A DNA stretch of 64,000 bases from Lachnospiraceae bacterium (GCA_015056925.1 SVFJ01000006.1:3253-67252); one strand, 5' to 3'; counted from the first letter of the stretch, positions 27,603 to 39,508 are shown. Translations and numbers: made by a program. Notes: generated by a model from the letters alone, not told the origin.

Positions 27603-27637
27603 AGGGATTGAGCTTATAGAATAAAAGGGGAGAATAG

Positions 27638-27670
27638 CCTTATCGGCGAGTGATGCCGATAAGGTTTTTT
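27638..27670 (+). terminator. Rho-independent terminator; left edge of the accessory island
   Basis: ccttatcggc-gagtgat-gccgataagg followed by T6. Confidence 0.7.
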
Positions 27671-27778
27671 GAGATGGGAGGAACTATAGTTCTATTTAAT
27701 AGAGGGAAGGAATGGGGTAGAATATATAGTAGGAATAGAATGTTATATGCAAAGAAAAGTTTGGAGTGATTAATTGCT

Positions 27779-30538
27779 GTGGAAATTAATGTAGAAAAAG
27801 TGATGATACTAATTCGTGGTGTTGATAAAACAGCGGAAATAAGTTGGATTGCCGATGATTTGCATGAAAATAGAAGAGAGGTTACTTATAAAAGTGGTCG
27901 GAGTTATCCGTATAAGCCGAAAAATGTGGTTGTTATTGAAAATCCTAGAAAAATCGAATTATCTGGAAATGTTGCCTATGAAAGAAATATTCCAATATAT
28001 AAACCGCAATGCATTCTGGATTTTGGAAAGTATGTTAGAATAATTGAACATAATGGCAAAATAATTAACGTTCATGCAAGAGATTTTTCTATTGTTCCTA
28101 ATGGGATAAAAGATGAGCAGGTAAAGGATATATTAGAATATTTTAAAAAAATTTCTCAATATATTTCTCATAAGGATTCAAAAGAGTATGGAGAAGGGTT
28201 TCTTAGACGTGAGATGGAGCAGATTACCTATGTGCATCCAGAGAGTGTATTATATGCATATCTAAAACAAGAAATAAGAGAAGAAAATAAAATAGATAAT
28301 AGGGTTATTTTTCCTTTTTGTTTTAATATAAGCCAAAAACAGGCATTAGAAAATGCACTATCAAATTCAATATCCATAATCAAAGGTCCGCCGGGAACAG
28401 GAAAAACACAGACTATTTTAAATATTATTGCTAATCTTGTTGTTATTCAGGAAAAGAGTGTGGCGGTAGTAGCGAATAATAATGAAGCTGTTAAAAATGT
28501 GTTAGAAAAGATGGAAAATAAAGGTTACGGTTTTTTATTTGCTTTTTTAGGGAGTGGAAAAAATCAAGATGTTTTTTTTAATCATATGCCAGAAATACAT
28601 ATTGAAGAATGGGATTGTCAAGAGAATATAGAAACATTAATGCAACAGGTTAAAATGTTAAATATTAAACTTAATAGTTTGTTGGAACTAGATAGAGAAC
28701 GAAAGAAATTGCAACAGCAGAAGAGGGCATGGATATTAGAACAGAAGCATTTTATGAAGTATTATGAGGGTCAGAATATTAGTGAAATAAGTGATTTTCC
28801 GTTATTTAGTGAAACATCAGATACAATACTTTCTTTTATGGCGGAGACATCGTTGGTTGTTGAGCAAAATTTGCTAAGAAGGTTTTTGTGGCGTTTGAAG
28901 AATAGTTTCAGATATGGTGTATTCAATTATAACAAACTAAGAGTAGATGAAAAAGAATTATTTTTGATGCTTCAAAAAGAATTTTATAATAAGTACATAG
29001 CGAATTTGGAAGAAAAAATTAACAACATAGTGAAAAAATTACAGTATGAAAACTTTGCTGATATAAATAAACAACATCAAAAAATTTCAGAGAAATTGTT
29101 TCGTAAATTCTTGTATGAAAGATATTCTAATATAATAGATTATGATTTTACAAAGAAAAATTATAAACCTAAATATAAAAAGTTTTTAGAAAGATATCCT
29201 GTAATATTGAGTACGACACATTCGTTGAGGCATTCAATACCGAGGAATTATCTGTTTGATTATGTTATTATTGACGAAGCTTCACAGGTAGATCTAATTA
29301 CAGGGGTATTAGTTTGTTCGTGTTGTAAAAATCTTATTATTGTTGGAGATGAAGCGCAACTGCCACAAATTATCGATACTTCAATTATGCAAAAGACAAA
29401 ATCTGTAATAATAAATGAGAAATATAATTATTTTAGGAACAGTGTTTTGACATCTTTCATGGAGATATATGGAGATAGAATTCCTTGTAAAATGTTGTAC
29501 GAGCATTACCGCTGTCATCCACAGATAATTGAATTTTGTAATCAGAAATATTATGGTGGTAAGTTAATTGCGTATACAGATGAGAGTTTATCGAAAAATC
29601 CATTAATAGTCTATAAGACTGTTCCTGGAAATCATATGCGTCATGTGACACGTGGAAATGATAAGGGAAGATATAATCAGCGAGAAATTGACGTGATTAA
29701 AGAAGAGGTTCTTAGGGAGGTTCAAGGGTTAGAGTCAACAGATAGTATAGGTATAGTGACGCCTTATCGTAAACAAGCGAATAAGATTAGCGAATCTCTA
29801 CCATCTTTTATTGAAAGTGATACAGTACATAAATATCAAGGAAGAGAAAAGGATATTATGATTATGTCTACTGTACTGGATACTACATGGGATGGAATAA
29901 GTGGTGTGAATTTTGTTGATGATTCACATATGATAAATGTTGCTGTTTCGCGTGCAATAAAACAATTTATTTTAGTTACAAATCAAGAATTATTCTTTTA
30001 TAAAGGGAAAGAAATTGGAGATTTGATTAGATATATACATTATAATACATTAGATAAAAATATTATTGAAAGTAATGTGATATCAGTGTTTGATTTATTA
30101 TATAAAGAGTATTCTCCTAAACTGAATGATTTAAAGCAAAAGATGAAAAAGAATGCGCGATATCAGTCTGAGGAAGTGATTCGTGTGCTTTTAGATGAAA
30201 TATTTTTACAGTCTGAATATGGAAGATTTAATTATTCACAAGGAGTATTATTATGCAATATTTTAAAGGATACAGAATTGCTGTCAAAAAAAGAACTTCG
30301 ATTTGTTAATCATAGAGCATCATTGGATTTTGTTATTTTCTGCAAACAAGATAAAAAGATTGTATTAGTAATTGAAGTTGATGGATTTGCATTTCATGAA
30401 AATAATCCCAGACAATTGGCGAGAGATGCTTTAAAGGATGGAATTTTACAGAAATATGGAATACCAATTATACGATTGGCAACGAATAAAAGTGGAGAGA
30501 AAGAAAAGATAGAGAAAGCTTTATCTGAGGTGTGGTAA
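27779..30538 (+). CDS. SF1 (Upf1/Dna2-like) helicase fused to a C-terminal restriction-endonuclease-like (DUF2726/Vsr-like) domain
   Basis: Walker A GPPGTGKTQ (28385-28408), VIIDEASQV, VGDEAQLPQI, YRCHPQI, VHKYQGREKD, NVAVSRA. The C-terminus has LDFVIF...LVIEVDGFAFH...RD...L...GIPIIRL (about 30290-30500). The N-terminal roughly 190 aa are unassigned. The GTG start is uncertain. Confidence 0.8.
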   Translation: MEINVEKVMILIRGVDKTAEISWIADDLHENRREVTYKSGRSYPYKPKNVVVIENPRKIELSGNVAYERNIPIYKPQCILDFGKYVRIIEHNGKIINVHARDFSIVPNGIKDEQVKDILEYFKKISQYISHKDSKEYGEGFLRREMEQITYVHPESVLYAYLKQEIREENKIDNRVIFPFCFNISQKQALENALSNSISIIKGPPGTGKTQTILNIIANLVVIQEKSVAVVANNNEAVKNVLEKMENKGYGFLFAFLGSGKNQDVFFNHMPEIHIEEWDCQENIETLMQQVKMLNIKLNSLLELDRERKKLQQQKRAWILEQKHFMKYYEGQNISEISDFPLFSETSDTILSFMAETSLVVEQNLLRRFLWRLKNSFRYGVFNYNKLRVDEKELFLMLQKEFYNKYIANLEEKINNIVKKLQYENFADINKQHQKISEKLFRKFLYERYSNIIDYDFTKKNYKPKYKKFLERYPVILSTTHSLRHSIPRNYLFDYVIIDEASQVDLITGVLVCSCCKNLIIVGDEAQLPQIIDTSIMQKTKSVIINEKYNYFRNSVLTSFMEIYGDRIPCKMLYEHYRCHPQIIEFCNQKYYGGKLIAYTDESLSKNPLIVYKTVPGNHMRHVTRGNDKGRYNQREIDVIKEEVLREVQGLESTDSIGIVTPYRKQANKISESLPSFIESDTVHKYQGREKDIMIMSTVLDTTWDGISGVNFVDDSHMINVAVSRAIKQFILVTNQELFFYKGKEIGDLIRYIHYNTLDKNIIESNVISVFDLLYKEYSPKLNDLKQKMKKNARYQSEEVIRVLLDEIFLQSEYGRFNYSQGVLLCNILKDTELLSKKELRFVNHRASLDFVIFCKQDKKIVLVIEVDGFAFHENNPRQLARDALKDGILQKYGIPIIRLATNKSGEKEKIEKALSEVW

Positions 30539-30704
30539 ATGATGTGTTAAGAGTATTGTATAGCTGTATTTTGAAAGAATTTAGTAAAATCAACGGTTTA
30601 CGGAGGACTTTTGAACCAAAGAATAATGCGCCATAGCAAAATCGTTATATAAATCAATTTGTTATGGTGTAATATAGAAAATTAAGAGCAATGGAGGTTG
30701 GGGT

Positions 30705-33290
30705 ATGTTTGAAAATGGTTCCGAAATATTGCGTGTAGATTTTCATCTTCATACCAAAGCAGATAAGGAATTTACGTATCAGGGTGAAGAAAATAGTTTT
30801 GTGAATGATTACGTTGATAAACTTGAAGATGAAAACATTAGGGTTGGTATAATTACGAACCATAATAAATTTGATATAAATGAATATAAAGCAATTAAAA
30901 GAGCAGCTAAGCGGAGAGATATTTTTATATTACCGGGAGTTGAATTATCAATAAAAGAGGGGGCAAATGGTGTACATACATTAATTGTATTCAATCCAGA
31001 TGAGTGGTTGGCAAACGGACAGAATCACATAGGAAGAGTGATTGATTCATTGTTTTTAGGGATTGACAATCCAGGCAATGAAAATACAAGATGTAATGCC
31101 GATTTAATTAAGGTAATTAGTACGCTCAATACATTAAATAAAGACTATTTTATGATTTTTGCGCATGTAGAGCAAAAAAGTGGTTTTTGGAATGAGTGTG
31201 AAGGGGGATTGATTGAAACATTGTCGCATAAAGAAGAATTTAAGCAAAGGGTGTTAGCATTTCAGAAGGTCAGAACAAGAGATAAGGAGCAAAATGTATG
31301 TAATTGGATGGGATATGAGATAGCGAATGTTGAAGGTTCTGATCCAAAGAAAATTTCTGAAATCGGAAAAGGTGAACAGAAAACATATTTAAAAATTGGG
31401 GCATTTACATATAATGCTATTAAGTATTCGCTCTGTGATTATGAGAATAGAGTGTATTCGGAAATACCAGAAATAGATCATGGGTATGTGACAGAAATGA
31501 AGTGTATAGGTGGAAAATTAGATGGACAAGTCTTTTTACCATCACATGAATTAAATACACTTATTGGTATTAGAGGAAGTGGAAAATCATCTATGTTAGA
31601 GGTTCTGAGGTATGGATTAAATCTCGAAGCTGCCGAACCAGATAATAAATATAAAACTAATTTGGTAAAAACTGCGTTAGGCAATGGAGGAAAAATTGAA
31701 ATAACTGTCATAGATAAGTACAAGGCTAAGTACAAAATATGCAGAATCAAGGAAGAGGAACCAGAAATTTATGATGTGAATAATATAAGAGTTCCTATAC
31801 AGGTGAATGATGTTGTAAATAATCCATTATATTTTGGACAAAAAGATTTGGCATTAACCCGAGCGGGATATGAAATGGAACTGCTAGATAAGATAGTTGG
31901 TAATGCGACAGTTGATGTTTCGCGTGAAATAAGAGGAGTGAATGATTTAATTGTAACATATTTAAAAAAGTATGTTGAAGTGTCAGATATACCTAATAAA
32001 ATTGAAGAATTAAATAGTATGAATGCAGAGATTCAACATAGGTTGAAGGTTTTTAAAGAGAATGGAATTGATGAAAAGCTTAAAAAACAAACGACATGTA
32101 ATGATGATTTATTGAAATTATCAAGTATTCTCAATAGGTTACAGGTTGTCAGAGATACATTGTCAAGAAATTGTGAAATAGAAGAAATAGATGAATTGAG
32201 ATTGGATAATTATATTACGGAGTATAATCAAGATATTATTACTAAAGCAAATGAACAGGTTAATAAAATAACAAAGATAATTGCAAAAATAGAGAAAGCA
32301 GTTGTAGAATTATCTGATACGGTTAATGTTTTAGGTAATATAAAAGAAGAGTTAAAAGAAAGGATTGATTCATTAAAAGAAGAATTTGCAGAAATAAAAA
32401 GAGAGATTAATGATGATACGTTAGATGTTGACAGTTATGTACAGTATCAGAAACGATTGACAGCAAATAATGAAGAGATAAAGCGTTATATATTGAAATT
32501 GAAGGAAAAAGATTCTATTGAGGAGTTGCTTAGAAAATTTTTCTCAGATAGAAAAGATATATTAAGGAAACAATACGAGTCTTATAAAGCAAGTATAGAT
32601 GAGATAAATGAGCGACAAGGTGAATTAAAAATTAATATAACTTATTTAGGAGATAAGGATAATTTCAGAGATAATTTAACTAAAGAGTTTAAAGGAACAG
32701 GAATTACGAATGGTAAATTTGATGCGCTTTCAGAGAGATATGATGAATTTGCAGATATTATACAAGATTACTTTTTGGATGACTCGCGACGTTTAAAGGA
32801 GGAATTAACAGATGCAATGTTTATAAAAATATCCTCTATTTTAAATGATAATTATGCAACTCTTTTAACTTATACCACATCAAACAAGATAGAAATTATT
32901 TATCATGATAAGCCATTAGGTAAACATTCACTCGGCCAAAGAGCTTCGGCCTTGATTTTGTTTATATTAACTCAAAATGATAGTGACTTGATAATAATTG
33001 ATCAACCGGAGGATGATTTGGACAATCAAGTGATTTATAAAGAGTTAATACAAACAATTAGGAAAAAGAAAAAAGATATGCAATTTATATTTGCTACTCA
33101 TAATGCAAATATTCCAGTATTGGGAGATGCAGAGAAGGTAGTTGCGACTGAATATGATGCGGATTGTGAAATCATTAATTTAGAACAAGGATCCATAGAT
33201 AGTGAGGCGATACATACAAAAATTGTGGATATAATGGAGGGCGGAGAAGAGGCATTTGAAAAGAGAAAAGAAATATATAATTATTGGTAA
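30705..33290 (+). CDS. PHP-domain phosphoesterase fused to a Rad50/SbcC/SMC-like ABC ATPase with a coiled-coil insert
   Basis: PHP HxH in VDFHLHTK (30744-30752), NHN, PGVELS, FAHVE. Walker A GIRGSGKSS (31566-31589). About 400 aa of heptad-rich sequence lie between Walker A and the signature. Signature-like HSLGQRA, Walker B IIIDQPEDDLD (32991-33023), H-loop ATHNANI. RBS GGAGG precedes ATG 30705. Confidence 0.8.
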   Translation: MFENGSEILRVDFHLHTKADKEFTYQGEENSFVNDYVDKLEDENIRVGIITNHNKFDINEYKAIKRAAKRRDIFILPGVELSIKEGANGVHTLIVFNPDEWLANGQNHIGRVIDSLFLGIDNPGNENTRCNADLIKVISTLNTLNKDYFMIFAHVEQKSGFWNECEGGLIETLSHKEEFKQRVLAFQKVRTRDKEQNVCNWMGYEIANVEGSDPKKISEIGKGEQKTYLKIGAFTYNAIKYSLCDYENRVYSEIPEIDHGYVTEMKCIGGKLDGQVFLPSHELNTLIGIRGSGKSSMLEVLRYGLNLEAAEPDNKYKTNLVKTALGNGGKIEITVIDKYKAKYKICRIKEEEPEIYDVNNIRVPIQVNDVVNNPLYFGQKDLALTRAGYEMELLDKIVGNATVDVSREIRGVNDLIVTYLKKYVEVSDIPNKIEELNSMNAEIQHRLKVFKENGIDEKLKKQTTCNDDLLKLSSILNRLQVVRDTLSRNCEIEEIDELRLDNYITEYNQDIITKANEQVNKITKIIAKIEKAVVELSDTVNVLGNIKEELKERIDSLKEEFAEIKREINDDTLDVDSYVQYQKRLTANNEEIKRYILKLKEKDSIEELLRKFFSDRKDILRKQYESYKASIDEINERQGELKINITYLGDKDNFRDNLTKEFKGTGITNGKFDALSERYDEFADIIQDYFLDDSRRLKEELTDAMFIKISSILNDNYATLLTYTTSNKIEIIYHDKPLGKHSLGQRASALILFILTQNDSDLIIIDQPEDDLDNQVIYKELIQTIRKKKKDMQFIFATHNANIPVLGDAEKVVATEYDADCEIINLEQGSIDSEAIHTKIVDIMEGGEEAFEKRKEIYNYW

Positions 33291-33453
33291 AGCATTGTGT
33301 GAATATATTTTTGATGGTTGTTTCTAGATTCAAAAGGTTTGAGTTTTTGTTCGCCGTAAATAGACGTTCCAAAGCAACGAGAGGTAGTCTGCTTTTACAT
33401 CAGCCAATATTAAAATAAAGTTACACCGATATAATACAGAAAGGAGCTTGCGA

Positions 33454-33795
33454 ATGAGTCAGAAACCAACATATCCAAACATAGACATGCAATGAATCGG
33501 AAGAAAACTGAAACACATGATTGAATCCGCAGGATATACACCGCGCATGATTCAAGATTACCTTCATTTATCATGTGAGCAGCCGATTTACCGTTGGTAT
33601 AAGGGATTGATATTGCCGTCGGTTGACTATTTATTTATGTTTAGTGAACTACTGAATGTTCACATGGAAGATTTCTTGGTAAAATACGGAACCGGTGATA
33701 TACGATATGGATCGATACAGTTCAAGAGTCGTACAAAAACGGTATATGGCATATTACATGAAACTATATTAGGCGGTGGCATAGGTGGCTTTTGA
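33454..33795 (+). pseudogene. XRE-type HTH regulator gene interrupted by an in-frame TGA
   Basis: AAGGAG precedes ATG 33454. The reading MSQKPTYPNIDMQ-TGA(33493-33495)-IGRKLKHMIESAGYTPRMIQDYL...IYRWYKG continues in the same frame as track ORF 33517. Confidence 0.6.
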
Positions 33796-33879
33796 CTAAC
33801 CGCCCAATGAAAATACTATTGACAAGTGATATCCTCTTATTATGAGCTCGCGAAGGGATTATGATAGGAGGATATTTTT

Positions 33880-34320
33880 ATGCAAAGAAAAGTGTGGAAG
33901 ATTTGGATGGAAACAAAATCGTAGTGATTCATGACATTCGATTTGAGTGAAAACAATCAATAGAGTGGTCGGATGTGGAAGAGTATTTGAAGCAGTGTGT
34001 GGGAGAAGCACATATTATTAAGAACAAAAATGGTATGGTCTATATTGGAGCTGATTTACCTGACGAGTATACACATTCTAATTATACGTATATTCTTAAA
34101 GGTGCGAATGCCAAAGCTAAGGCAAATACAGCACAAGGATTGCCAGAGATGCTGGTAATTGCTAATGAAAAAGAATATGAAGACATTGAAAGATATAATG
34201 TATTTTTGCGCAATTATGTTTGTGAGACATGCAGAAGATGATAAATTATACTTATACGATATCACTAAAATAAAAAAAGAAACAAGCAACCTTTTCCAGT
34301 CCAAAGACTTTACTCAGTAA
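33880..34320 (+). pseudogene. Decayed gene of unknown function (frameshifts plus an in-frame TGA), possibly a mobile-element nuclease-like remnant
   Basis: ATG 33880 (MQRK) is out of frame with the continuous reading SVEDLDGNKIVVIHDIRFE-TGA-KQSIEWSDVEEYLKQ...(track ORF 33975-34241). The apparent C-terminus AEDDKLYLYDITKIKKETSNLFQS is in yet another frame and ends at 34320. Confidence 0.5.
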
Positions 34321-34566
34321 CAAAACTCATTTCTTGAGATAAGAGTAGTACATATACGGGAAAAAGTCAATGGAAACTATTGGTTAACTAAAAAACGGAA
34401 ATTGAATTTTTACTTAACGGAATGAAAACTATTAGTATTTGAAAAACCTAAACATTAGTTCTTGGCGCGTTTATTGTACAACATTTAATTTATCATAAAA
34501 TCATGAGAAATATTAATAAAAAAGTAGAAAAGCAATTCATGACGTATGTATAATAGGAGGTTTTAT

Positions 34567-35781
34567 ATGAAGTGGGATGAATACTATGAAAAAATAAATG
34601 ATTGGGCAGTTAGTACCGCTGTAAATAAAATATCTTCGCTTGAAAACATAGGTGCGCCGGACGAAATTGTTGATGCCCTTTATGTGATTGCTTATGAGGA
34701 TGAAAAAGGTGCAATTAGGCTTCTTAATAAAGCACTGCAAAATGGAATTAAGTTCTCTGGAGAGAAGCTGGTAGAAATCAAAGATTTGTGTGGTGAAGAA
34801 TGCTTTAAAAAGGCTTTTTATCAATCAGCAGAGAATTTTACAAAGCAGGATTTAGAAGAATTGCATGGTTGTATTGATGATGAGCTTATTATAGAAGTTG
34901 GAAGAAAGTATCATATAGCAATGCCGGAAGAAATTATGGAAGAGCATGAAGAAGAGTTATGTACAGATTTATCGTCAACGATAACTTGGGACAGATTTTA
35001 TGATTTGTTTAATGATTGGAGTATGGAATTTGCAATTGTGCGTTCTAAGAATTTAAAAGAATTTGGAACAGATGATGAGGTAATGGAAGTAGCGCATGAA
35101 TTATTTTGTACTGATAAAAAAGGTGCAAGTGATTTTATATGTAGAGCTTTGGAATATGGTGTGAAATTCGATTGTGACAATATTTTAGAAATGATTGGAT
35201 TATGCGATGAGGAGACAATAAGAAGGGTAGCACTTGCTTCTGGTTCCATGCTTGATTCGGAAGATTTAGAAGAGTTGTATGGTGAGATAAATGATGAATT
35301 AATATCAAAGATAGCTCATAAATATAAGCTTGAACTTCCAGAAGATATGCGGGAGAAAACTGAAGATAATAGCGTAAATGAAATAGCTATAGCCAATGCT
35401 GTAGATGCAGCAGATTGTGCATTAATATATCTTATGCGAGCACAGTCCATGCTAAATGATATAACCAGTATTAGCGTAATTGATTTAATAACAAATAAAT
35501 TTGCGCCATCATTAATGAAGAATCTATTATTAAATGAGGCAGAGTATTTTCTGTATGATGCCCAAAATGAGATTGATAGGCTGAATGGCGAACTAAAAAA
35601 TATCTTATACCATAAAACAATACGACTTAAATATTCAAGGTTGACTTCCTTAGCGGATATTATGTATGACACTAAATTCTTGGATAGATTGACGTACCTT
35701 AGGCTGAATAAGGCATTAAAGCGGATTAGGAAAGTAATTTCACAGATTGAAGCAATCAGGAGAGAGCTGGAAAGGATGTAG
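34567..35781 (+). CDS. Hypothetical protein: two tandem copies of a roughly 125-aa helical module plus a C-terminal coiled-coil-like region
   Basis: AGGAGG (34555-34560) precedes ATG 34567. Module 1 is WDEYYEKINDW...DLEELHGCIDDELIIEVGRKYHIAMPEE. Module 2 is WDRFYDLFNDW...DLEELYGEINDELISKIAHKYKLELPED. I recognise no family. Confidence 0.7.
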   Translation: MKWDEYYEKINDWAVSTAVNKISSLENIGAPDEIVDALYVIAYEDEKGAIRLLNKALQNGIKFSGEKLVEIKDLCGEECFKKAFYQSAENFTKQDLEELHGCIDDELIIEVGRKYHIAMPEEIMEEHEEELCTDLSSTITWDRFYDLFNDWSMEFAIVRSKNLKEFGTDDEVMEVAHELFCTDKKGASDFICRALEYGVKFDCDNILEMIGLCDEETIRRVALASGSMLDSEDLEELYGEINDELISKIAHKYKLELPEDMREKTEDNSVNEIAIANAVDAADCALIYLMRAQSMLNDITSISVIDLITNKFAPSLMKNLLLNEAEYFLYDAQNEIDRLNGELKNILYHKTIRLKYSRLTSLADIMYDTKFLDRLTYLRLNKALKRIRKVISQIEAIRRELERM

Positions 35782-35833
35782 AGTTGACATAAGAGCAATA
35801 ATGTGCTTGGTTAGTCGGCTTTGATATGTTAAA

Positions 35834-35986
35834 ATGGCAAGTAAAGAGAATGAACTTTGGGAAAAGGCAGTAGAAATAGCACCACAAAGATGGAATGATA
35901 AAAATGGCGGAGATTGGGAAGATGTTGATAAGTATGAACGTGAGGATTATGTTTGGTCAATATTTTATGAATTGAAAGAATCGTGA
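35834..35986 (+). CDS. Possible small acidic, Trp-rich protein (50 aa)
   Basis: Open frame MASKENELWEKAVEIAPQRWNDKNGGDWEDVDKYEREDYVWSIFYELKES, below the ORF-track cutoff. The RBS is weak. It ends 61 bp upstream of the PLD-helicase gene. Confidence 0.3.
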   Translation: MASKENELWEKAVEIAPQRWNDKNGGDWEDVDKYEREDYVWSIFYELKES

Positions 35987-36046
35987 CGTTAATTCTAGCT
36001 AATCTATTGTAAAAATATTAGAGCTTGAAATAGGAGGGACACCAAG

Positions 36047-39000
36047 ATGAAGCCCAAGTCAATAGTAGAACTTAAAAGTGGTCTTGAAACAGCATTTATA
36101 GATAACACATTTCATTCGAATTTGGCATACAAACCTCAGTTTATTTATAACGATAATAAGAAGGGACAGAAGGTTTTTTCTGCCATTGAAGACGAATTAC
36201 TCAAGTGTGACCAATTTGCAATTAGTGTGGCTTTTATTACAAGAGGAGGAATTACACCGCTTTTGCAGACTTTACAGGAGCTGGAAAGAAGAGGTATTCC
36301 GGGCAGGATTTTGACGACAGACTATCTTTCATTTAGTGACCCTTCTGCATTGGATACGATTGCGAGCCTTTCTAATATAGAGTTACGTATGTATCAAACA
36401 GAGCGTGCAGGTAATGGCTTTCATACCAAAGGATATATATTTCATAAGGACGAAGAATATCGATTTATCATTGGGAGCTCTAACCTGACACAAGATGCTT
36501 TGACCAGAAATATGGAATGGAATACCAAGCTGGTATCAACGAGCCAGGGAGAAATGATAAATTCTGTACTGAATGAGTTTGATAAGCTGTGGAATGAAGT
36601 TGAATATACCAAGACTTATGATGAGTTTATAGAGAATTATCGTAAGAAATATGAAGAAAAGCAACTATTTAACAAAATGGTTGCAGAACAAAAACGAATT
36701 GCAAGGAATGAAGCAGTTCCATCGGTGGAAGCATATACTTTGCAACCCAATTCGATGCAGACAACGTTTATTAATAATTTAATGGCAATGAGAAAGAATG
36801 GAGTTGATAAAGCACTATTAATCTCTGCGACGGGTACAGGTAAAACTTATGCATCAGCATTTGCTATGAGAGAGCTCGGTTTTAAACGAGTTTTATTTTT
36901 GGTACATAGAAATCAGATTGCAAAGCAAGCAAAAGTATCCTTTGAACGTGTATTTGGAAGTAGAATCAGAACGGGTTTGGTGTCAGGAATTAGACATGAT
37001 TATGATGCAGATTTTGTGTTTGCAACAGTACAGACTCTCAGCAAACAGGAGAATTTAGAGAAGTTTCCTAGAGATTACTTTGATGCATGTATCTATGATG
37101 AGGCACATCACACAAGTGCGGGAAGTTATAAGAAGGTAATGGATTACTTTACGCCTACATTTACTTTGGGAATGACTGCTACACCGGACAAGCGTGACGA
37201 CAATATAGAAGGCCGAAATATTTATGAGATTTTCGACCATAATATTGCATATGAAATTCGATTGCAACAGGCGATGGAAGAGGATTTGTTGTGTCCATTT
37301 CATTATTTTGGTATTACAGATTTGGCAGTGGTTTCTGACGAAGGAAATTCGAAGGAAGAGCAATTAGAGAATTTTAGATTCTTAACAAGCGATGAGCGTG
37401 TGAAGTATGTTATGGAGCAGGCAAAGTACTTTGGATACTGTGGAGAGCGAGTAAAGGGTCTTATTTTCTGTAGCAGAATAGATGAAGCAAAGGAGCTTTC
37501 TAGAAAGTTTAATGAACAGGGATTAAGAACAATAGCTTTGAGTGGCGCAGACTCAGAGGAAGTAAGAGCAGAGGCGATAGAACGGTTAACGATGGATATT
37601 CAGTCTAAGGATGATGCCTATTTGGACTATATTATTACTGTAGACATTTTCTCAGAAGGAACAGATATCGTAGAGGTAAATCAAGTTATCATGCTTCGCC
37701 CAACGCAATCACCGATTGTCTTTATCCAGCAGTTAGGACGAGGTCTGAGGAAGGCATTTGAAAAGGAATATGTTGTTATCTTGGATTTTATAGGTAATTA
37801 TAAGAATAACTTTATGATTCCAATAGCCTTGTCAGGAGACAGAAGCTATAACAAGGATAATATTCGTAGATATCTTATGGAAGGTGGTCGTGTGATACCA
37901 GGAGCAAGCACGATTCATTTTGATGAGATTAGTCGAAAGAGAATTTTTGCGGCTGTTGATAATGCGAATTTTAGCGATATTAAATTGATTAAGGAGAATT
38001 ATACGAATCTTAAGAATAAACTGGGGCGCATTCCGAGATTAAGAGATTTTGATGATTACGGAGAAATGGATGTACTTCGTATCTTTGATAACAATAGCTT
38101 GGGTTCATATTACAAGTTCCTTGTAAAATATGAGAAGGAATATGGAGTTAGATTGTCACCAGAGGAAGAGAAAGTAATTGAGTTCGTATCGAAAAAGCTA
38201 GCAAGTGGAAAAAGAATTCAAGAGCTTCGTCTTTTGGATAGAATGCTGGAGTATGTGAATCGCTTATCTAGATTTATGCTTTTTACAAATTTGAAAGCAG
38301 ATCTTCAGAATAACTATGGAATAGAGATGAGCATGAATCAGCAGGAAAATATAGTCAATATCATGACAAATGAGTTTCCAGCAGGCACTGGTAAGAATAC
38401 GTATTCGGAGTGTGTTTTTATAGAGAAAGATAATTCTTCAAATGATTATCAGGTAACGAAATCCTTTGAGAAGATGCTGTTAAATAAGGAATTTAGCGAA
38501 ATATTAAAAGAACTTGTAGATTTTGGTATTAGCCGATATGAGAGAGATTATTCTAATACATATAAGGATACAGATTTGGTACTTTATCAAAAGTATACCT
38601 ATGAGGATGTATGTAGACTTTTGAATTGGGAGAATAATGAAGTTCCTCTTAATATTGGTGGTTATAAATATGATAAGAAAACAAAGACGTTCCCAGTATT
38701 TATAAACTACGATAAATCAGAAGATATAAGTGATACAACAAAGTATGAGGATCATTTCACAAGCAGTTCCAGCCTGATTGCGATATCAAAGTCAGGTAGA
38801 ACTATATCCTCTGAGGATGTACAGAATTTCTTGCATGCAAATGAGAGAGGTATTCAGGTTCATTTATTTGTGAGAAAGAATAAGGATGACAAGATTTCAA
38901 AGGAATTTTATTATCTTGGTCATATGCAAGCGAGCGGTCGGGTAAAGGAGTTTATCATGCCAAATACAGACAAGACTGCGGTTGAGATTGAATGGCTTTT

Positions 39001-39049
39001 GGACCAGCCTGTGAGACAAGATTTATATGAATATATTGTGGAGAATTAG
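36047..39049 (+). CDS. PLD-family nuclease - SF2 DEAH helicase - C-terminal DUF3427-type domain protein
   Basis: A single HKD motif FHTKGYIF...GSSNLT (His codon 36422). Walker A SATGTGKT (36824-36847), DEAH YDEAHH (37097-37108), MTATP, QQLGRGLR. The roughly 350-aa C-terminal region matches my recollection of the architecture annotated DUF3427. RBS AGGAGGG. Confidence 0.85.
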   Translation: MKPKSIVELKSGLETAFIDNTFHSNLAYKPQFIYNDNKKGQKVFSAIEDELLKCDQFAISVAFITRGGITPLLQTLQELERRGIPGRILTTDYLSFSDPSALDTIASLSNIELRMYQTERAGNGFHTKGYIFHKDEEYRFIIGSSNLTQDALTRNMEWNTKLVSTSQGEMINSVLNEFDKLWNEVEYTKTYDEFIENYRKKYEEKQLFNKMVAEQKRIARNEAVPSVEAYTLQPNSMQTTFINNLMAMRKNGVDKALLISATGTGKTYASAFAMRELGFKRVLFLVHRNQIAKQAKVSFERVFGSRIRTGLVSGIRHDYDADFVFATVQTLSKQENLEKFPRDYFDACIYDEAHHTSAGSYKKVMDYFTPTFTLGMTATPDKRDDNIEGRNIYEIFDHNIAYEIRLQQAMEEDLLCPFHYFGITDLAVVSDEGNSKEEQLENFRFLTSDERVKYVMEQAKYFGYCGERVKGLIFCSRIDEAKELSRKFNEQGLRTIALSGADSEEVRAEAIERLTMDIQSKDDAYLDYIITVDIFSEGTDIVEVNQVIMLRPTQSPIVFIQQLGRGLRKAFEKEYVVILDFIGNYKNNFMIPIALSGDRSYNKDNIRRYLMEGGRVIPGASTIHFDEISRKRIFAAVDNANFSDIKLIKENYTNLKNKLGRIPRLRDFDDYGEMDVLRIFDNNSLGSYYKFLVKYEKEYGVRLSPEEEKVIEFVSKKLASGKRIQELRLLDRMLEYVNRLSRFMLFTNLKADLQNNYGIEMSMNQQENIVNIMTNEFPAGTGKNTYSECVFIEKDNSSNDYQVTKSFEKMLLNKEFSEILKELVDFGISRYERDYSNTYKDTDLVLYQKYTYEDVCRLLNWENNEVPLNIGGYKYDKKTKTFPVFINYDKSEDISDTTKYEDHFTSSSSLIAISKSGRTISSEDVQNFLHANERGIQVHLFVRKNKDDKISKEFYYLGHMQASGRVKEFIMPNTDKTAVEIEWLLDQPVRQDLYEYIVEN

Positions 39050-39062
39050 GAGATAAAACAGT

Positions 39063-39464
39063 ATGAAAACAATTAGAGTAGTAGCAGCTATTATCAAAGC
39101 TGTAAATGAAAAAGATGATCCGATTATCTTTGCAACGCAGAGAGGATATGGTGATTTTGCAGGTGGTTGGGAGTTCCCCGGCGGTAAGATTGAAGAAGGA
39201 GAAACACCACAGGAAGCTCTTAAGCGTGAAATTGTCGAAGAGTTGGAGACAAAGATTACGGTTGGAGAATTAATTGATACGATAGAGTATGATTACCCAA
39301 CATTCCATCTTTCTATGGATTGCTTCTGGGCCGAAATTGTGTCGGGTGATTTAGTGTTGAAGGAGCATGAAGCAGCTAAATGGTTGACAAAGGAAGAGTT
39401 AGATTCTGTAGAGTGGTTGCCAGCGGATATTACACTAATAGAGAAGATAAGAGTGGAGATGTAA
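39063..39464 (+). CDS. Nudix hydrolase (MutT-like NTP pyrophosphohydrolase)
   Basis: Nudix box GGKIEEGETPQEALKREIVEELE. It starts 13 nt after the helicase stop and has its own AGGAG RBS. Confidence 0.85.
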   Translation: MKTIRVVAAIIKAVNEKDDPIIFATQRGYGDFAGGWEFPGGKIEEGETPQEALKREIVEELETKITVGELIDTIEYDYPTFHLSMDCFWAEIVSGDLVLKEHEAAKWLTKEELDSVEWLPADITLIEKIRVEM

Positions 39465-39466
39465 GT

Positions 39467-39508
39467 GAATGGCATAGCCATCAGCTTTAGCTGGTGGCTA
39501 TGCCATTC
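39467..39508. terminator. Strong hairpin between convergent genes (probable bidirectional terminator)
   Basis: 19-bp arms gaatggcatagccatcagc / gctggtggctatgccattc with one G-U pair. The T tracts are weak. Confidence 0.55.

What the first reader, a model, noticed from the sequence alone, without database searches (positions are those of the whole stretch)
27671..39508. Integrase-less accessory island densely packed with helicase/nuclease/ATPase genes (defence-island signature)
The segment lies between the ABC-exporter terminator (27638-27670) and the hairpin at 39467-39508. From about 27.7 to 36 kb the sequence turns markedly AT-rich by eye, with AAA/AAT/ATT-dominated codons; I did not compute GC. 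The segment encodes four large nucleic-acid enzymes in one orientation. Gene A is an SF1 helicase fused to an REase-like domain. Gene B is a PHP domain fused to an SMC-like ATPase. The third is a PLD-SF2 helicase-DUF3427 protein. The fourth is a Nudix hydrolase. Interspersed are two decayed mobile-element-type genes and an unassignable 404-aa protein. No methyltransferase, integrase, transposase or tRNA is present. The gene content is typical of stacked anti-phage systems. At least part of it (34.5-39.5 kb) does not correspond to any named system I can recall.
Basis: partly seen in the sequence, partly recalled or inferred. Interest (0 to 1): 0.7.

Follow-up and report, generated by a model that had tools for sequence, protein, structure and literature searches.

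The report
Stacked anti-phage defence island, mostly known parts
This 12-kb AT-rich stretch in an uncultured gut Lachnospiraceae genome is an ordinary defence island: it holds a SauUSI-type restriction enzyme that cuts methylated DNA, with its usual Nudix partner, plus a Ppl-like nuclease-ATPase, an uncharacterised helicase-nuclease and a protein of unknown function.

Summary
Window 27671-39508 has GC 0.33 against 0.41 elsewhere. It lies between a terminator and a 20-bp hairpin, has no tRNA, integrase, transposase or methylase, and carries five intact genes on the + strand plus two pseudogenes.

The defence-island reading is supported, but the claim that 34.5-39.5 kb matches no named system is wrong. 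Gene 36047-39049 is a full-length SauUSI-family type IV restriction enzyme (PDB 7CLG, E 9e-211). The Nudix gene after it is the partner already reported for SauUSI in 2011-2012.

Gene B is a TrlF-family PHP/ABC-type ATPase, a paralogue of the Ppl defence protein. Gene A (beta-barrel N-terminus, Upf1-like SF1 helicase, DUF2726 nuclease) belongs to a widespread, well conserved Firmicutes family that matches no named system over its full length. The 404-aa protein is an all-alpha protein with no known fold relative; its homologues recur inside defence islands of other Lachnospiraceae.

A and B are not a conserved pair, so the modules look independent. None of the island genes follows the conserved AraC-ABC1-ABC2 block in about 25 related species. 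Verdict: a new member of a known kind, of moderate to low interest.

The parts
27637..27675 (+). Intrinsic terminator of the ABC exporter operon; left edge of the island
   Evidence: Stem GCCTTATCGGC/GCCGATAAGG followed by a T-run, read directly. GC falls from 0.40 to 0.30 just after it.
27743..27765 (+). Copy 1 of a 23-nt direct repeat (TTATATGCAAAGAAAAGTTTGGA). It resembles the start of the small pseudogene at 33880.
   Evidence: D10, 21/23 identical; local score 19 against 9.96 +/- 1.66 in shuffles (1 of 500 reach it); 0 of 1560 other 160-nt windows reach it. Both copies lack the 7 nt that follow ATGCAA(A/C)GAAAAGT in L070 and L072; upstream of the ATG the two flanks are not detectably alike (one search shows copy 1 against copy 2, one search shows copy 2 against L070/L072).
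27779..30538 (+). Gene A, 919 aa: N-terminal all-beta (tandem small-barrel) domain, Upf1-like SF1 helicase, C-terminal DUF2726 PD-(D/E)xK nuclease. Candidate single-gene defence protein.
   Evidence: Pfam AAA_11 5e-28, AAA_12 1e-30, DUF2726 2e-13. PADLOC and NCBIfam match only the helicase core of MkoA/MkoC, Hhe and ProA. Family invariants: GPPGTGKT 203-210, DE 499-500, QGR 687-689, D850, E866-x-D868, H873, K886. N-terminal model. Homologues stand alone in defence contexts.
30705..33290 (+). Gene B, 861 aa: PHP phosphoesterase, then an ABC/SMC-type ATPase with a coiled-coil insert. TrlF family, paralogue of Ppl.
   Evidence: NCBIfam NF045780 TrlF, 510.6 bits (cut-off 350), full length. Ppl_antiphage 146 bits (cut-off 1000). 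PADLOC Ppl 2e-28. Invariants: H14-x-H16, H53, E80, H91, H154; Walker A 288-295; Q379; signature S742-G-Q-R; Walker B D766-E769; H799.
33454..33795 (+). Pseudogene of an HTH transcriptional regulator, with an in-frame TGA at codon 14
   Evidence: Sequence. The read-through aligns at aa 4-94 (33% identity, 2e-8) to annotated helix-turn-helix regulators. PHROG transcriptional repressor 7e-4.
33880..34320 (+). Pseudogene of a ~143-aa hypothetical-protein family. It has a 7-nt deletion after codon 5, a TGA at about 33948, an indel in the middle and a 1-nt insertion near 34205. It contains repeat copy 2 (33876-33898).
   Evidence: 130 homologues of 79-154 aa with no Pfam domain. The merged read-through aligns at aa 6-152, 63% identity, E 1e-53, to intact genes in L070-L073. 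DNA alignment.
34567..35781 (+). Gene 5, 404 aa: all-alpha protein with two tandem ~135-aa helical domains and a C-terminal coiled coil. Function unknown; its homologues sit in defence islands.
   Evidence: At least 247 homologues of ~405 aa in Lachnospiraceae. AF2 model pLDDT 85.5. No significant fold match. Contexts. The domain is found in 1821 representative proteins. The weak A_deaminase hit is below cut-off.
36047..39049 (+). SauUSI-family type IV (modification-dependent) restriction enzyme, 1000 aa: PLD nuclease, SF2 helicase, DUF3427
   Evidence: PADLOC mREase_IV 5.6e-221, full length. PDB 7CLG 9e-211, residues 10-998 against 9-952, with the FHTKGYIF...GSSNLT, SATGTGKT, DEAHH, MTATP and QQLGRGLR motifs conserved. 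Pfam DUF3427 1e-93.
39063..39464 (+). MutT-like Nudix hydrolase, 133 aa, starting 13 nt after SauUSI; the conserved SauUSI-linked partner
   Evidence: Pfam NUDIX 2e-18. PADLOC PDC-S07 2e-49. TIGR00586 MutT 93.8 bits (cut-off 97.9) and NudG-type 85.8 bits (cut-off 156). Nudix box GKIEEGETPQEALKREIVEELE. The linkage is published and recurs in L038.
39467..39508 (.). Perfect-stem hairpin between the convergent Nudix and LMW-PTP genes; right edge. Probably a bidirectional terminator.
   Evidence: I4: 20-nt arms, 95% complementary, 2-nt loop.

Best explanation
The segment is a composite, horizontally acquired defence island in an uncultured Lachnospiraceae chromosome. It is built from at least three independent modules rather than one multi-gene system.

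(1) SauUSI-like enzyme plus Nudix (36047-39464). By homology to SauUSI, the DUF3427 domain recognises 5mC/5hmC-containing DNA. The SF2 ATPase translocates and the N-terminal PLD domain cuts. This restricts incoming phage or plasmid DNA that carries cytosine methylation. The co-transcribed MutT-like Nudix is an accessory that is not needed for restriction. My inference is that it hydrolyses modified or damaged (d)NTPs, such as 5-methyl-dCTP released from degraded foreign DNA. That would keep them out of host DNA and prevent self-restriction.

(2) Gene B (TrlF family, Ppl-like). By analogy to E. coli Ppl, it is an NTP-gated PHP 3'-5' exonuclease coupled to an ABC-type ATPase dimer with coiled-coil arms. 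It would attack free DNA 3' ends during infection.

(3) Gene A. This is a stand-alone helicase-nuclease. The N-terminal beta-barrel domain is inferred to be the sensing or binding module. The Upf1-like 5'-3' SF1 motor would load on foreign nucleic acid, and the DUF2726 (Vsr/DUF559-type PD-(D/E)xK) domain would cleave it.

Gene 5 is a non-enzymatic helical protein that travels with defence islands. It is most likely an adaptor, sensor or regulator, but this is the weakest inference.

Shown here: domain content, intact motifs, family membership, foreign composition and lack of synteny. Inferred: all activities and any phage protection.
For: Composition and boundaries.

SauUSI identity. SauUSI biochemistry and the Nudix linkage come from PMC3141236. 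The Nudix is dispensable for restriction according to PMC3312211. A SauUSI + Nudix pair also occurs in L038/L039, with a 4-nt overlap.

Gene B: TrlF family above the curated cut-off with all PHP and ABC motifs invariant. The Ppl mechanism is summarised in PMC12904381. TrlF homologues sit beside Eco57I-type methylases, Wadjet JetC/JetD and Schlafen-AlbA_2 proteins.

Gene A: about 915-aa homologues with the same architecture occur in many Firmicutes. They sit next to Hachiman plus an IS, between HipA-like genes, and next to ParE/Phd. Motifs are intact. DUF2726 is classed as a PD-(D/E)xK, REase-fold DNase.

Independence of modules: no A homologue lies near 9 B homologues, and no B homologue lies near A homologues.

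Not syntenic: in 25 of 25 related loci with sequence downstream of the conserved AraC-ABC1-ABC2 block, no island gene was found there.

Gene 5 in defence neighbourhoods (SIR2, SauUSI, BREX BrxL, QatABCD, NERD helicase, PLD/HATPase).
Against: No phenotype of any kind is available.

The nearest sequenced relatives share only about 70% amino-acid identity in the flank, so no clean empty site or exact insertion boundary could be defined. Four metagenomes that hold the organism all have the island at the same depth as its flanks, so no presence/absence polymorphism was seen.

Gene A matches named defence proteins only over the shared helicase core. Gene B fails the Ppl equivalog cut-off.

The Nudix has host-like GC. 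A 56%-identical homologue also follows a gene-A homologue elsewhere. It could therefore be a general house-cleaning gene rather than a SauUSI-specific partner.

Gene 5 is unusually well conserved for a defence gene (79% mean column identity). In one species it sits in the conserved flank of a variable region.
Confidence: 0.8

Rival explanations
1. The block is the decayed remnant of an integrative mobile element, such as an ICE, a genomic island or a prophage. Its surviving cargo serves the element through exclusion or competition rather than the host. The pseudogenes and the 23-nt direct repeat would be scars of insertion.
For: Two pseudogenes lie in the middle of the block. A+B+HTH (27766-33875) is bracketed by a direct repeat of the 5' end of the small pseudogene. 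The 5' and 3' ends of that small gene are at least 90% conserved in many abundant gut genomes, with depth 120-440x against about 5x for the locus. Gene 5 homologues sit near ArdA, rve and RadC genes in two genomes.
Against: There is no integrase, transposase, relaxase, conjugation or phage structural gene in the segment or within 10 kb on either side. No tRNA is present. The pseudogene has no match in PLSDB plasmids or INPHARED phages, and gene 5 is absent from IMG/VR. The graded GC (0.30, then 0.34, then 0.36-0.40) argues for several acquisitions rather than one element.
Confidence: 0.12
2. These are housekeeping DNA-repair and nucleotide-sanitation genes (a repair helicase-nuclease, an SbcC/RecF-like ATPase with a PHP nuclease, a RadD-like helicase, MutT) that happen to be AT-rich.
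For: The Nudix scores just under the MutT equivalog cut-off (93.8 against 97.9) and has host-like GC. Gene A and gene 5 families are well conserved in sequence. Weak similarities exist to RecD, RadD and Rad50.
Against: None of these genes is found at this locus in about 25 related species. Homologues occur in changing, defence-rich contexts. Gene 6 is collinear with the biochemically characterised restriction enzyme SauUSI. GC z-scores run from -2.6 to -5.5.
Confidence: 0.05
3. Gene A and gene B form one two-gene system (helicase-nuclease plus PHP-ATPase), and gene 5, SauUSI and Nudix form one three-gene system.
For: All the genes have the same orientation. No terminator was detected between A and B, which are 166 nt apart. 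Gene 5 lies within a few kb of a SauUSI gene or fragment in three of the six distinct gene-5 contexts examined: the window, L038/L039 and L075.
Against: 0 of 9 TrlF-homologue loci carry an A homologue; instead they have a Schlafen-AlbA_2 or an Eco57I-type partner. 0 of 4 distinct A-homologue contexts carry a TrlF gene. Gene 5 also occurs without SauUSI (L037, L040, L041, L074). SauUSI works alone in S. aureus. B has its own RBS and a promoter-like sequence upstream.
Confidence: 0.08

Closest known systems
SauUSI (Staphylococcus aureus type IV modification-dependent restriction enzyme; PDB 7CLG) with its linked Nudix gene
   Same: Full-length collinear homologue (E 9e-211) with the PLD/HKD nuclease motif, SF2 helicase motifs and the DUF3427 domain. 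An adjacent MutT/Nudix gene is present, as reported for at least 60 SauUSI-like loci.
   Different: The host is a Lachnospiraceae rather than Staphylococcus. The Nudix lies downstream, whereas it was described as upstream in S. aureus Newman. Specificity and activity are untested.
Ppl (single-gene PHP + ATPase anti-phage protein; attribution to Gao et al. 2020 is from my own knowledge) and the NCBIfam TrlF family
   Same: Gene B has the same PHP-N-terminus plus ABC-type-ATPase-with-coiled-coil architecture. It is a full-length TrlF family member above the curated cut-off. PHP and ATPase catalytic residues are invariant. Ppl is reported to be an NTP-gated 3'-5' exonuclease.
   Different: It scores 146 bits against the Ppl equivalog cut-off of 1000, so it is a paralogous family and not Ppl itself. 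I found no paper on TrlF in the library. Many TrlF homologues have a coupled Schlafen-AlbA_2/HATPase_c_4 partner that is absent here.
Mokosh (MkoA/MkoB, MkoC) and Hhe/ProA helicase-based defence proteins
   Same: Gene A shares the Upf1-like SF1 (AAA_11/AAA_12) helicase core (PADLOC MkoC 8e-56, MkoA 5e-53, Hhe 3e-18). Like them, it couples a helicase to a nuclease.
   Different: Only the helicase core aligns. Gene A is half the size, lacks their N-terminal regions, and carries a DUF2726 PD-(D/E)xK nuclease instead of a PLD. Its NCBIfam Hhe and ProA scores are far below cut-off.
Defence islands and core defence hotspots in general
   Same: Several unrelated defence genes are clustered in one orientation, with foreign composition, no synteny in relatives, and pseudogene debris between modules.
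   Different: No integrase or tRNA anchor is present. In relatives the site downstream of the ABC exporter holds mostly ordinary genes, with only occasional conflict-type proteins, so it is not a recognisable shared hotspot.

Membership tests
SauUSI-family type IV restriction enzyme | N-terminal PLD/HKD nuclease domain with the catalytic HxK...GSxN motif | tested here: met
   Pfam PLDc_2 8e-14. FHTKGYIF...IGSSNLT aligns to the same motif of 7CLG.
SauUSI-family type IV restriction enzyme | Central SF2 helicase/ATPase with Walker A, DEAH and motif VI | tested here: met
   ResIII 2e-36, Helicase_C 5e-11. SATGTGKT, YDEAHH, MTATP and QQLGRGLR are conserved against SauUSI.
SauUSI-family type IV restriction enzyme | C-terminal DUF3427 (5mC/5hmC-sensing) domain and full-length collinearity | tested here: met
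   DUF3427 1e-93 over profile positions 1-279 of 280. PADLOC mREase_IV covers 9-998 against 8-952 of 953. 7CLG covers 10-998 against 9-952.
SauUSI-family type IV restriction enzyme | ATP-dependent cleavage of 5mC/5hmC-modified DNA only | not testable with these tools
   Needs purified protein and methylated substrates.
TrlF family AAA-like ATPase (NCBIfam NF045780) | Whole-protein score above the curated cut-off, with full-length coverage | tested here: met
   510.6 bits against a cut-off of 350; residues 4-859 against profile 1-944.
Ppl anti-phage protein (NCBIfam NF042955 / PADLOC Ppl) | Equivalog-level sequence similarity | tested here: not met
   145.9 bits against a cut-off of 1000. The best-scoring stretch of the PADLOC Ppl match (2e-28, two stretches) covers only residues 453-855.
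Ppl anti-phage protein (NCBIfam NF042955 / PADLOC Ppl) | PHP metal-binding residues plus Walker A/B, signature and H-loop of the NTPase | tested here: met
   H14-x-H16, H53, E80, H91, H154, G288-S295, Q379, S742-G-Q-R, D766-E769 and H799 are invariant in 8 family members.
Mokosh (type I MkoA+MkoB / type II MkoC) | PLD nuclease (MkoB, or the C-terminus of MkoC) and the long MkoA-type N-terminal region | tested here: not met
   Only the helicase core aligns: residues 182-756 against MkoA profile 616-1100, and 281-753 against MkoC profile 448-963. Gene A has no PLD domain; its nuclease is DUF2726. No MkoB-like gene is nearby.
Hhe / ProA anti-phage helicases | Equivalog score and the ~1800-1900-aa architecture with DUF4011 | tested here: not met
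   Hhe 90.8 bits against a cut-off of 2000; ProA 122.6 bits against 1500. Only about 190 residues of the helicase align.
MutT 8-oxo-dGTP diphosphatase (TIGR00586) | Score above the trusted cut-off; Nudix box | tested here: inconclusive
   93.8 bits against a cut-off of 97.9. NudG-type 85.8 bits against 156. The Nudix box is present, with the final G replaced by E. The substrate is unknown.
PADLOC candidate PDC-S07 | Full-length match to the candidate's HMM | tested here: met
   2e-49, residues 1-130 against profile 3-129 of 135. PDC-S07 is only a candidate. Of the seven papers that mention it I read one, PMC11514479: it lists PDC-S07 among PADLOC predictions and the passages found report no test of it.
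Classical genomic island / integrative element | Integrase or recombinase, a tRNA or att target, flanking direct repeats | tested here: not met
   No tRNA. No integrase or transposase domain in any ORF of the segment or its flanks. The only repeat is a 23-nt internal one, which brackets A+B+HTH and not the whole island.
Defence island (operational definition) | At least two recognised defence genes clustered, foreign composition, variable presence among relatives | tested here: met
   SauUSI-type enzyme and TrlF/Ppl-like protein, plus candidates. GC z-scores from -2.6 to -5.5. The genes are absent downstream of the conserved ABC block in about 25 related species. Strain-level variability could not be shown.

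The most novel reading that the evidence does not exclude
Gene A represents an undescribed, widespread single-gene anti-phage family in Firmicutes: a tandem beta-barrel N-domain, an Upf1-like SF1 helicase and a DUF2726 nuclease, in about 915 aa. The 404-aa two-repeat helical protein is a new component specific to defence islands. The A-B block entered by recombination at the highly conserved 5' end of a small gene that marks island borders in gut Firmicutes.
Probability: 0.25. Interest if true: 0.55.

Novelty: new member of a known kind. Interest (0 to 1): 0.3.

Why it matters
Lachnospiraceae are abundant gut commensals that are hard to manipulate genetically. A SauUSI-type enzyme in this lineage predicts a concrete transformation barrier against Dcm-methylated E. 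coli DNA, and a simple way round it: use dcm-minus donor DNA, as was done for staphylococci.

The island also gives three cheap test cases:
- a TrlF-family paralogue of Ppl;
- a compact helicase-nuclease family that named-system HMMs match only in part;
- the long-unexplained Nudix partner of SauUSI, for which a nucleotide-sanitation role can be tested directly.

None of this changes current concepts. It extends known families to a new host.

Tried and rejected
(1) The weak A_deaminase hit of gene 5 (E 3e-4, 20 bits against a cut-off of 27, about 50 residues). Rejected, because the AF2 model is all-helical repeats plus a coiled coil and has no fold match.

(2) A+B as a two-gene system. Rejected on co-occurrence.

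(3) My own recollection that the small pseudogene was a fragment of a large ICE polyvalent protein or PBECR nuclease. Not supported. Pfam and PHROGs find nothing. Homologues are free-standing proteins of 79-154 aa. There are no plasmid or phage matches.

(4) Defining an empty site. Genome-collection relatives are too distant, so synteny ends at the ABC2 stop. Four metagenome runs show the island at flank depth, and only spurious joints with 20-28-nt sides.

(5) A literature search for TrlF found nothing relevant.

(6) Fold searches. The N-terminal domain of gene A gave only weak SH3/KOW/Tudor-like barrel matches (E > 0.01, TM < 0.3). Gene 5 gave none.

(7) An Rfam scan of the segment found nothing.

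(8) A search of viral contigs for gene 5 found nothing.

(9) The 50-aa ORF at 35834-35986 has no RBS, no homologue in the fetched loci and no family hit. I treat it as non-coding.

Full report
**What is there.** The window comes from an uncultured Lachnospiraceae chromosome. The ABC exporter subunit upstream of the segment is at best 71% identical to proteins of Lachnospiraceae, Acetatifactor and Lachnospira MAGs. Metagenome contigs carrying identical proteins exist.

The segment 27671-39508 begins just after a canonical stem-loop plus T-run at about 27637-27675. It ends at a 20-nt-arm hairpin at 39467-39508, between the convergent Nudix and LMW-PTP genes. It contains five intact + strand genes, A, B, gene 5, gene 6 and Nudix, plus two pseudogenes.

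There is no tRNA and no Rfam family. No integrase, transposase or methyltransferase domain occurs in any ORF of the segment or within about 10 kb on either side. The flanks encode a Na/Pi cotransporter, an AraC regulator, an ABC exporter pair, LMW-PTP, a CotH kinase, TspO, prephenate dehydrogenase and an EF-G paralogue.

**Composition.** GC is 0.331 in the segment against 0.411 elsewhere. Against 31 other ORFs of the window (0.418 +/- 0.022), the genes compare as follows:

| Gene | GC | z |
|---|---|---|
| A | 0.299 | -5.5 |
| B | 0.307 | -5.1 |
| Gene 5 | 0.341 | -3.6 |
| SauUSI-like | 0.362 | -2.6 |
| Nudix | 0.405 | -0.6 |

The gradient suggests several acquisitions of different age or source rather than one block.

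**Gene 6 and Nudix (36047-39464): a known system.** Gene 6 has PLDc_2, ResIII/Helicase_C and DUF3427. It matches PADLOC's type IV methyl-directed restriction enzyme model end to end (5.6e-221). It also matches the solved SauUSI structure 7CLG end to end (9e-211), with the HKD, Walker A, DEAH, motif III and motif VI residues conserved.

SauUSI cleaves 5mC/5hmC DNA in an NTP-dependent manner. Its discoverers already noted a conserved MutT/Nudix gene linked to at least 60 SauUSI-like genes (PMC3141236). Deleting the Nudix in S. aureus did not relieve restriction (PMC3312211).

The window's Nudix starts 13 nt after gene 6 and has a MutT-like Nudix box. It matches PADLOC candidate PDC-S07 (2e-49) and scores just under the MutT and NudG cut-offs. 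The same pair recurs in another Lachnospiraceae locus (L038; SauUSI 47% and Nudix 69% identical).

My proposal that the Nudix removes modified dCTP to prevent self-restriction is inference only. A 56%-identical Nudix also follows a gene-A homologue (L064), so the gene may have a broader role.

**Gene B (30705-33290).** Pfam sees only the ATPase (AAA_21). NCBIfam places the whole protein in the TrlF family (510.6 bits, cut-off 350), with weaker full-length similarity to the Ppl anti-phage protein (146 bits, cut-off 1000). PADLOC Ppl gives 2e-28.

In an alignment with seven metagenomic homologues (35-48% identity), the following are invariant:
- the PHP residues H14-x-H16, H53, E80, H91 and H154;
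- the ABC-type Walker A, Q-loop, signature, Walker B/D-loop and H-loop.

E. coli Ppl is described as an NTP-inhibited ssDNA 3'-5' exonuclease activated by nucleotide depletion and free 3'-OH ends (PMC12904381). I adopt this as the working mechanism by analogy. B is a paralogue of Ppl, not Ppl itself.

**Gene A (27779-30538).** It has an Upf1-like SF1 helicase (AAA_11/AAA_12) and a C-terminal DUF2726 domain. DUF2726 is a PD-(D/E)xK, REase-fold DNase grouped with Vsr/DUF559.

Named defence models (MkoA, MkoC, Hhe, ProA, PDC-S37) match only the helicase core. The family is large, and about 915-aa proteins with the same architecture occur in many Firmicutes. It is well conserved, with helicase and nuclease catalytic residues invariant.

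A model of the first 185 residues gives an all-beta domain of 11 strands with pLDDT around 90. It resembles tandem SH3/KOW/Tudor barrels only weakly.

Homologues stand alone in changing contexts:
- next to Hachiman and an IS in Lysinibacillus;
- between HipA-like genes in Blautia;
- next to ParE/Phd and a Nudix in a metagenome.

**Are A and B a pair?** No. None of nine TrlF-homologue loci has an A homologue. Five of them have a translationally coupled Schlafen-AlbA_2/HATPase_c_4 gene downstream. Three have an Eco57I-type methylase upstream, and one sits beside Wadjet JetC/JetD. No A-homologue locus has a TrlF gene.

**Gene 5 (34567-35781).**

At least 247 homologues of about 405 aa (50-55% identical to the query) were found. 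The few that carry a source name come from Lachnospiraceae or Kineothrix. The AF2 model (pLDDT 85.5) is all-alpha, with two tandem ~135-aa helical domains and a long C-terminal coiled coil. Foldseek finds nothing significant in the PDB, and only weak giant-virus helical repeats in BFVD. The weak adenosine-deaminase hit is spurious.

A profile search finds the ~130-aa domain in 1821 representative proteins of varied architecture, with no informative fusion partner. The gene is absent from IMG/VR viral contigs.

All six distinct contexts examined, counting the window itself, are defence-rich:
- SIR2, SauUSI + Nudix and HipA;
- a ResIII helicase plus a small SAM-dependent methyltransferase-family gene;
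- a helicase/MZB protein, a NERD-UvrD helicase, an IS and ArdA;
- HATPase_c_3 + PLD, YAcAr and RadC;
- BrxL, a SauUSI fragment, QatABCD, YhcG and Nudix.

In one lineage it forms a fixed ArsC - peptide deformylase - gene 5 triad with variable defence genes on both sides. Its function remains unknown. An adaptor or regulator role is my low-confidence guess.

**The pseudogenes (33.3-34.5 kb).** One is an HTH regulator with a TGA at codon 14.

The other belongs to a ~143-aa hypothetical-protein family. Compared with intact copies, it has a 7-nt deletion after codon 5, a TGA, a mid-gene indel and a 1-nt insertion. Neither is demonstrably mobile-element-type.

Two observations are suggestive.
- A 23-nt copy of this gene's start lies at 27743-27765, 14 nt before gene A. 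Like the copy at 33876-33898, it lacks the 7 nt that follow ATGCAA(A/C)GAAAAGT in the intact L070 and L072 copies. A+B+HTH is therefore bracketed by a direct repeat. Its score is 19 against 9.96 +/- 1.66 in shuffles, and none of 1560 other windows reaches it. The repeat was found post hoc, so this is not strong evidence.
- The 5' and 3' ends of this small gene have depths of 120-440x in faecal metagenomes where the locus itself is at about 5x. They are therefore at least 90% conserved in many abundant genomes. In L070-L073 the intact gene sits at the border of a variable defence-type region.

**Is the block accessory?** In 25 related loci with sequence downstream of the conserved AraC-ABC1-ABC2 block, no island gene was found there. 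Even the right-flank PTP and CotH genes are absent. The neighbours are mostly ordinary signalling and carbohydrate genes.

The relatives are distant, at about 70% amino-acid identity. Four metagenomes that carry this organism all have the island, with contigs crossing both junctions. Strain-level presence/absence therefore remains unshown.

**Verdict.** This is a real, compositionally foreign, integrase-less defence island made of independent modules. Two modules belong to named families (SauUSI + Nudix, and TrlF/Ppl-like). One is an uncharacterised but widespread helicase-nuclease. One is a protein of unknown function that keeps company with defence genes. It is a new member of a known kind, and interest is moderate to low.

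Noticed in passing
window 27743-27765 and 33876-33898: A 23-nt direct repeat (21/23 identical) brackets gene A, gene B and the HTH pseudogene. Both copies correspond to the start of the small pseudogene, and both lack the 7 nt found after ATGCAA(A/C)GAAAAGT in the intact L070/L072 copies. This may be a recombination or insertion scar.
   Followed up: partly
window 33808-33960 and 34267-34340: In four faecal metagenomes these two short pieces, the 5' and 3' ends of the ~143-aa-family pseudogene, reach depths of 120-440x while the surrounding locus is at about 5x. The gene's ends are therefore near-identical in many abundant gut genomes while its middle varies. There is no match in plasmid or phage collections.
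   Followed up: partly
L074-L078 (and L038-L040), around the gene-5 homologue: A recurring triad, ArsC-like - short peptide deformylase - gene-5 homologue, sits between variable defence systems. BREX BrxL, a SauUSI fragment or SIR2 lie upstream; QatABCD, YhcG and Nudix, or HipA, lie downstream. It looks like the conserved core of a Lachnospiraceae defence hotspot.
   Followed up: partly
L064 7001-10195: The closest gene-A homologue (60% identical) is directly followed by a Nudix that is 56% identical to the SauUSI-linked Nudix of the window. This Nudix type is therefore not exclusive to SauUSI.
   Followed up: no
L043, L044/L045, L046, L048, L049 (downstream of TrlF homologues): TrlF-family genes are followed, with an overlap of roughly 13-19 nt, by a ~385-aa Schlafen-AlbA_2 + HATPase_c_4 protein. 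This looks like a conserved two-gene arrangement, and it is missing in the window. L042, L050 and L046 instead have a 1095-1234-aa Eco57I/N6_Mtase protein upstream.
   Followed up: partly
window 34567-35355 (first two domains of gene 5): The ~130-aa helical domain that is duplicated in gene 5 is an unannotated module. It occurs in 1821 representative proteins: singly, in pairs, and once as nine matched stretches in a 1078-aa protein. Ten of the larger or multi-domain hits were scanned and no Pfam family covers the module in any of them.
   Followed up: partly
window 35834-35986: A 50-aa acidic ORF lies between gene 5 and the SauUSI-like gene. It has no recognisable RBS, no family hit and no homologue in the fetched loci, so it is probably not a gene.
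   Followed up: yes
L016 6355-6879: An intact homologue of the small pseudogene lies just upstream of the AraC-ABC1-ABC2 block in a related species. That is near the same conserved block but on its other side.
   Followed up: no
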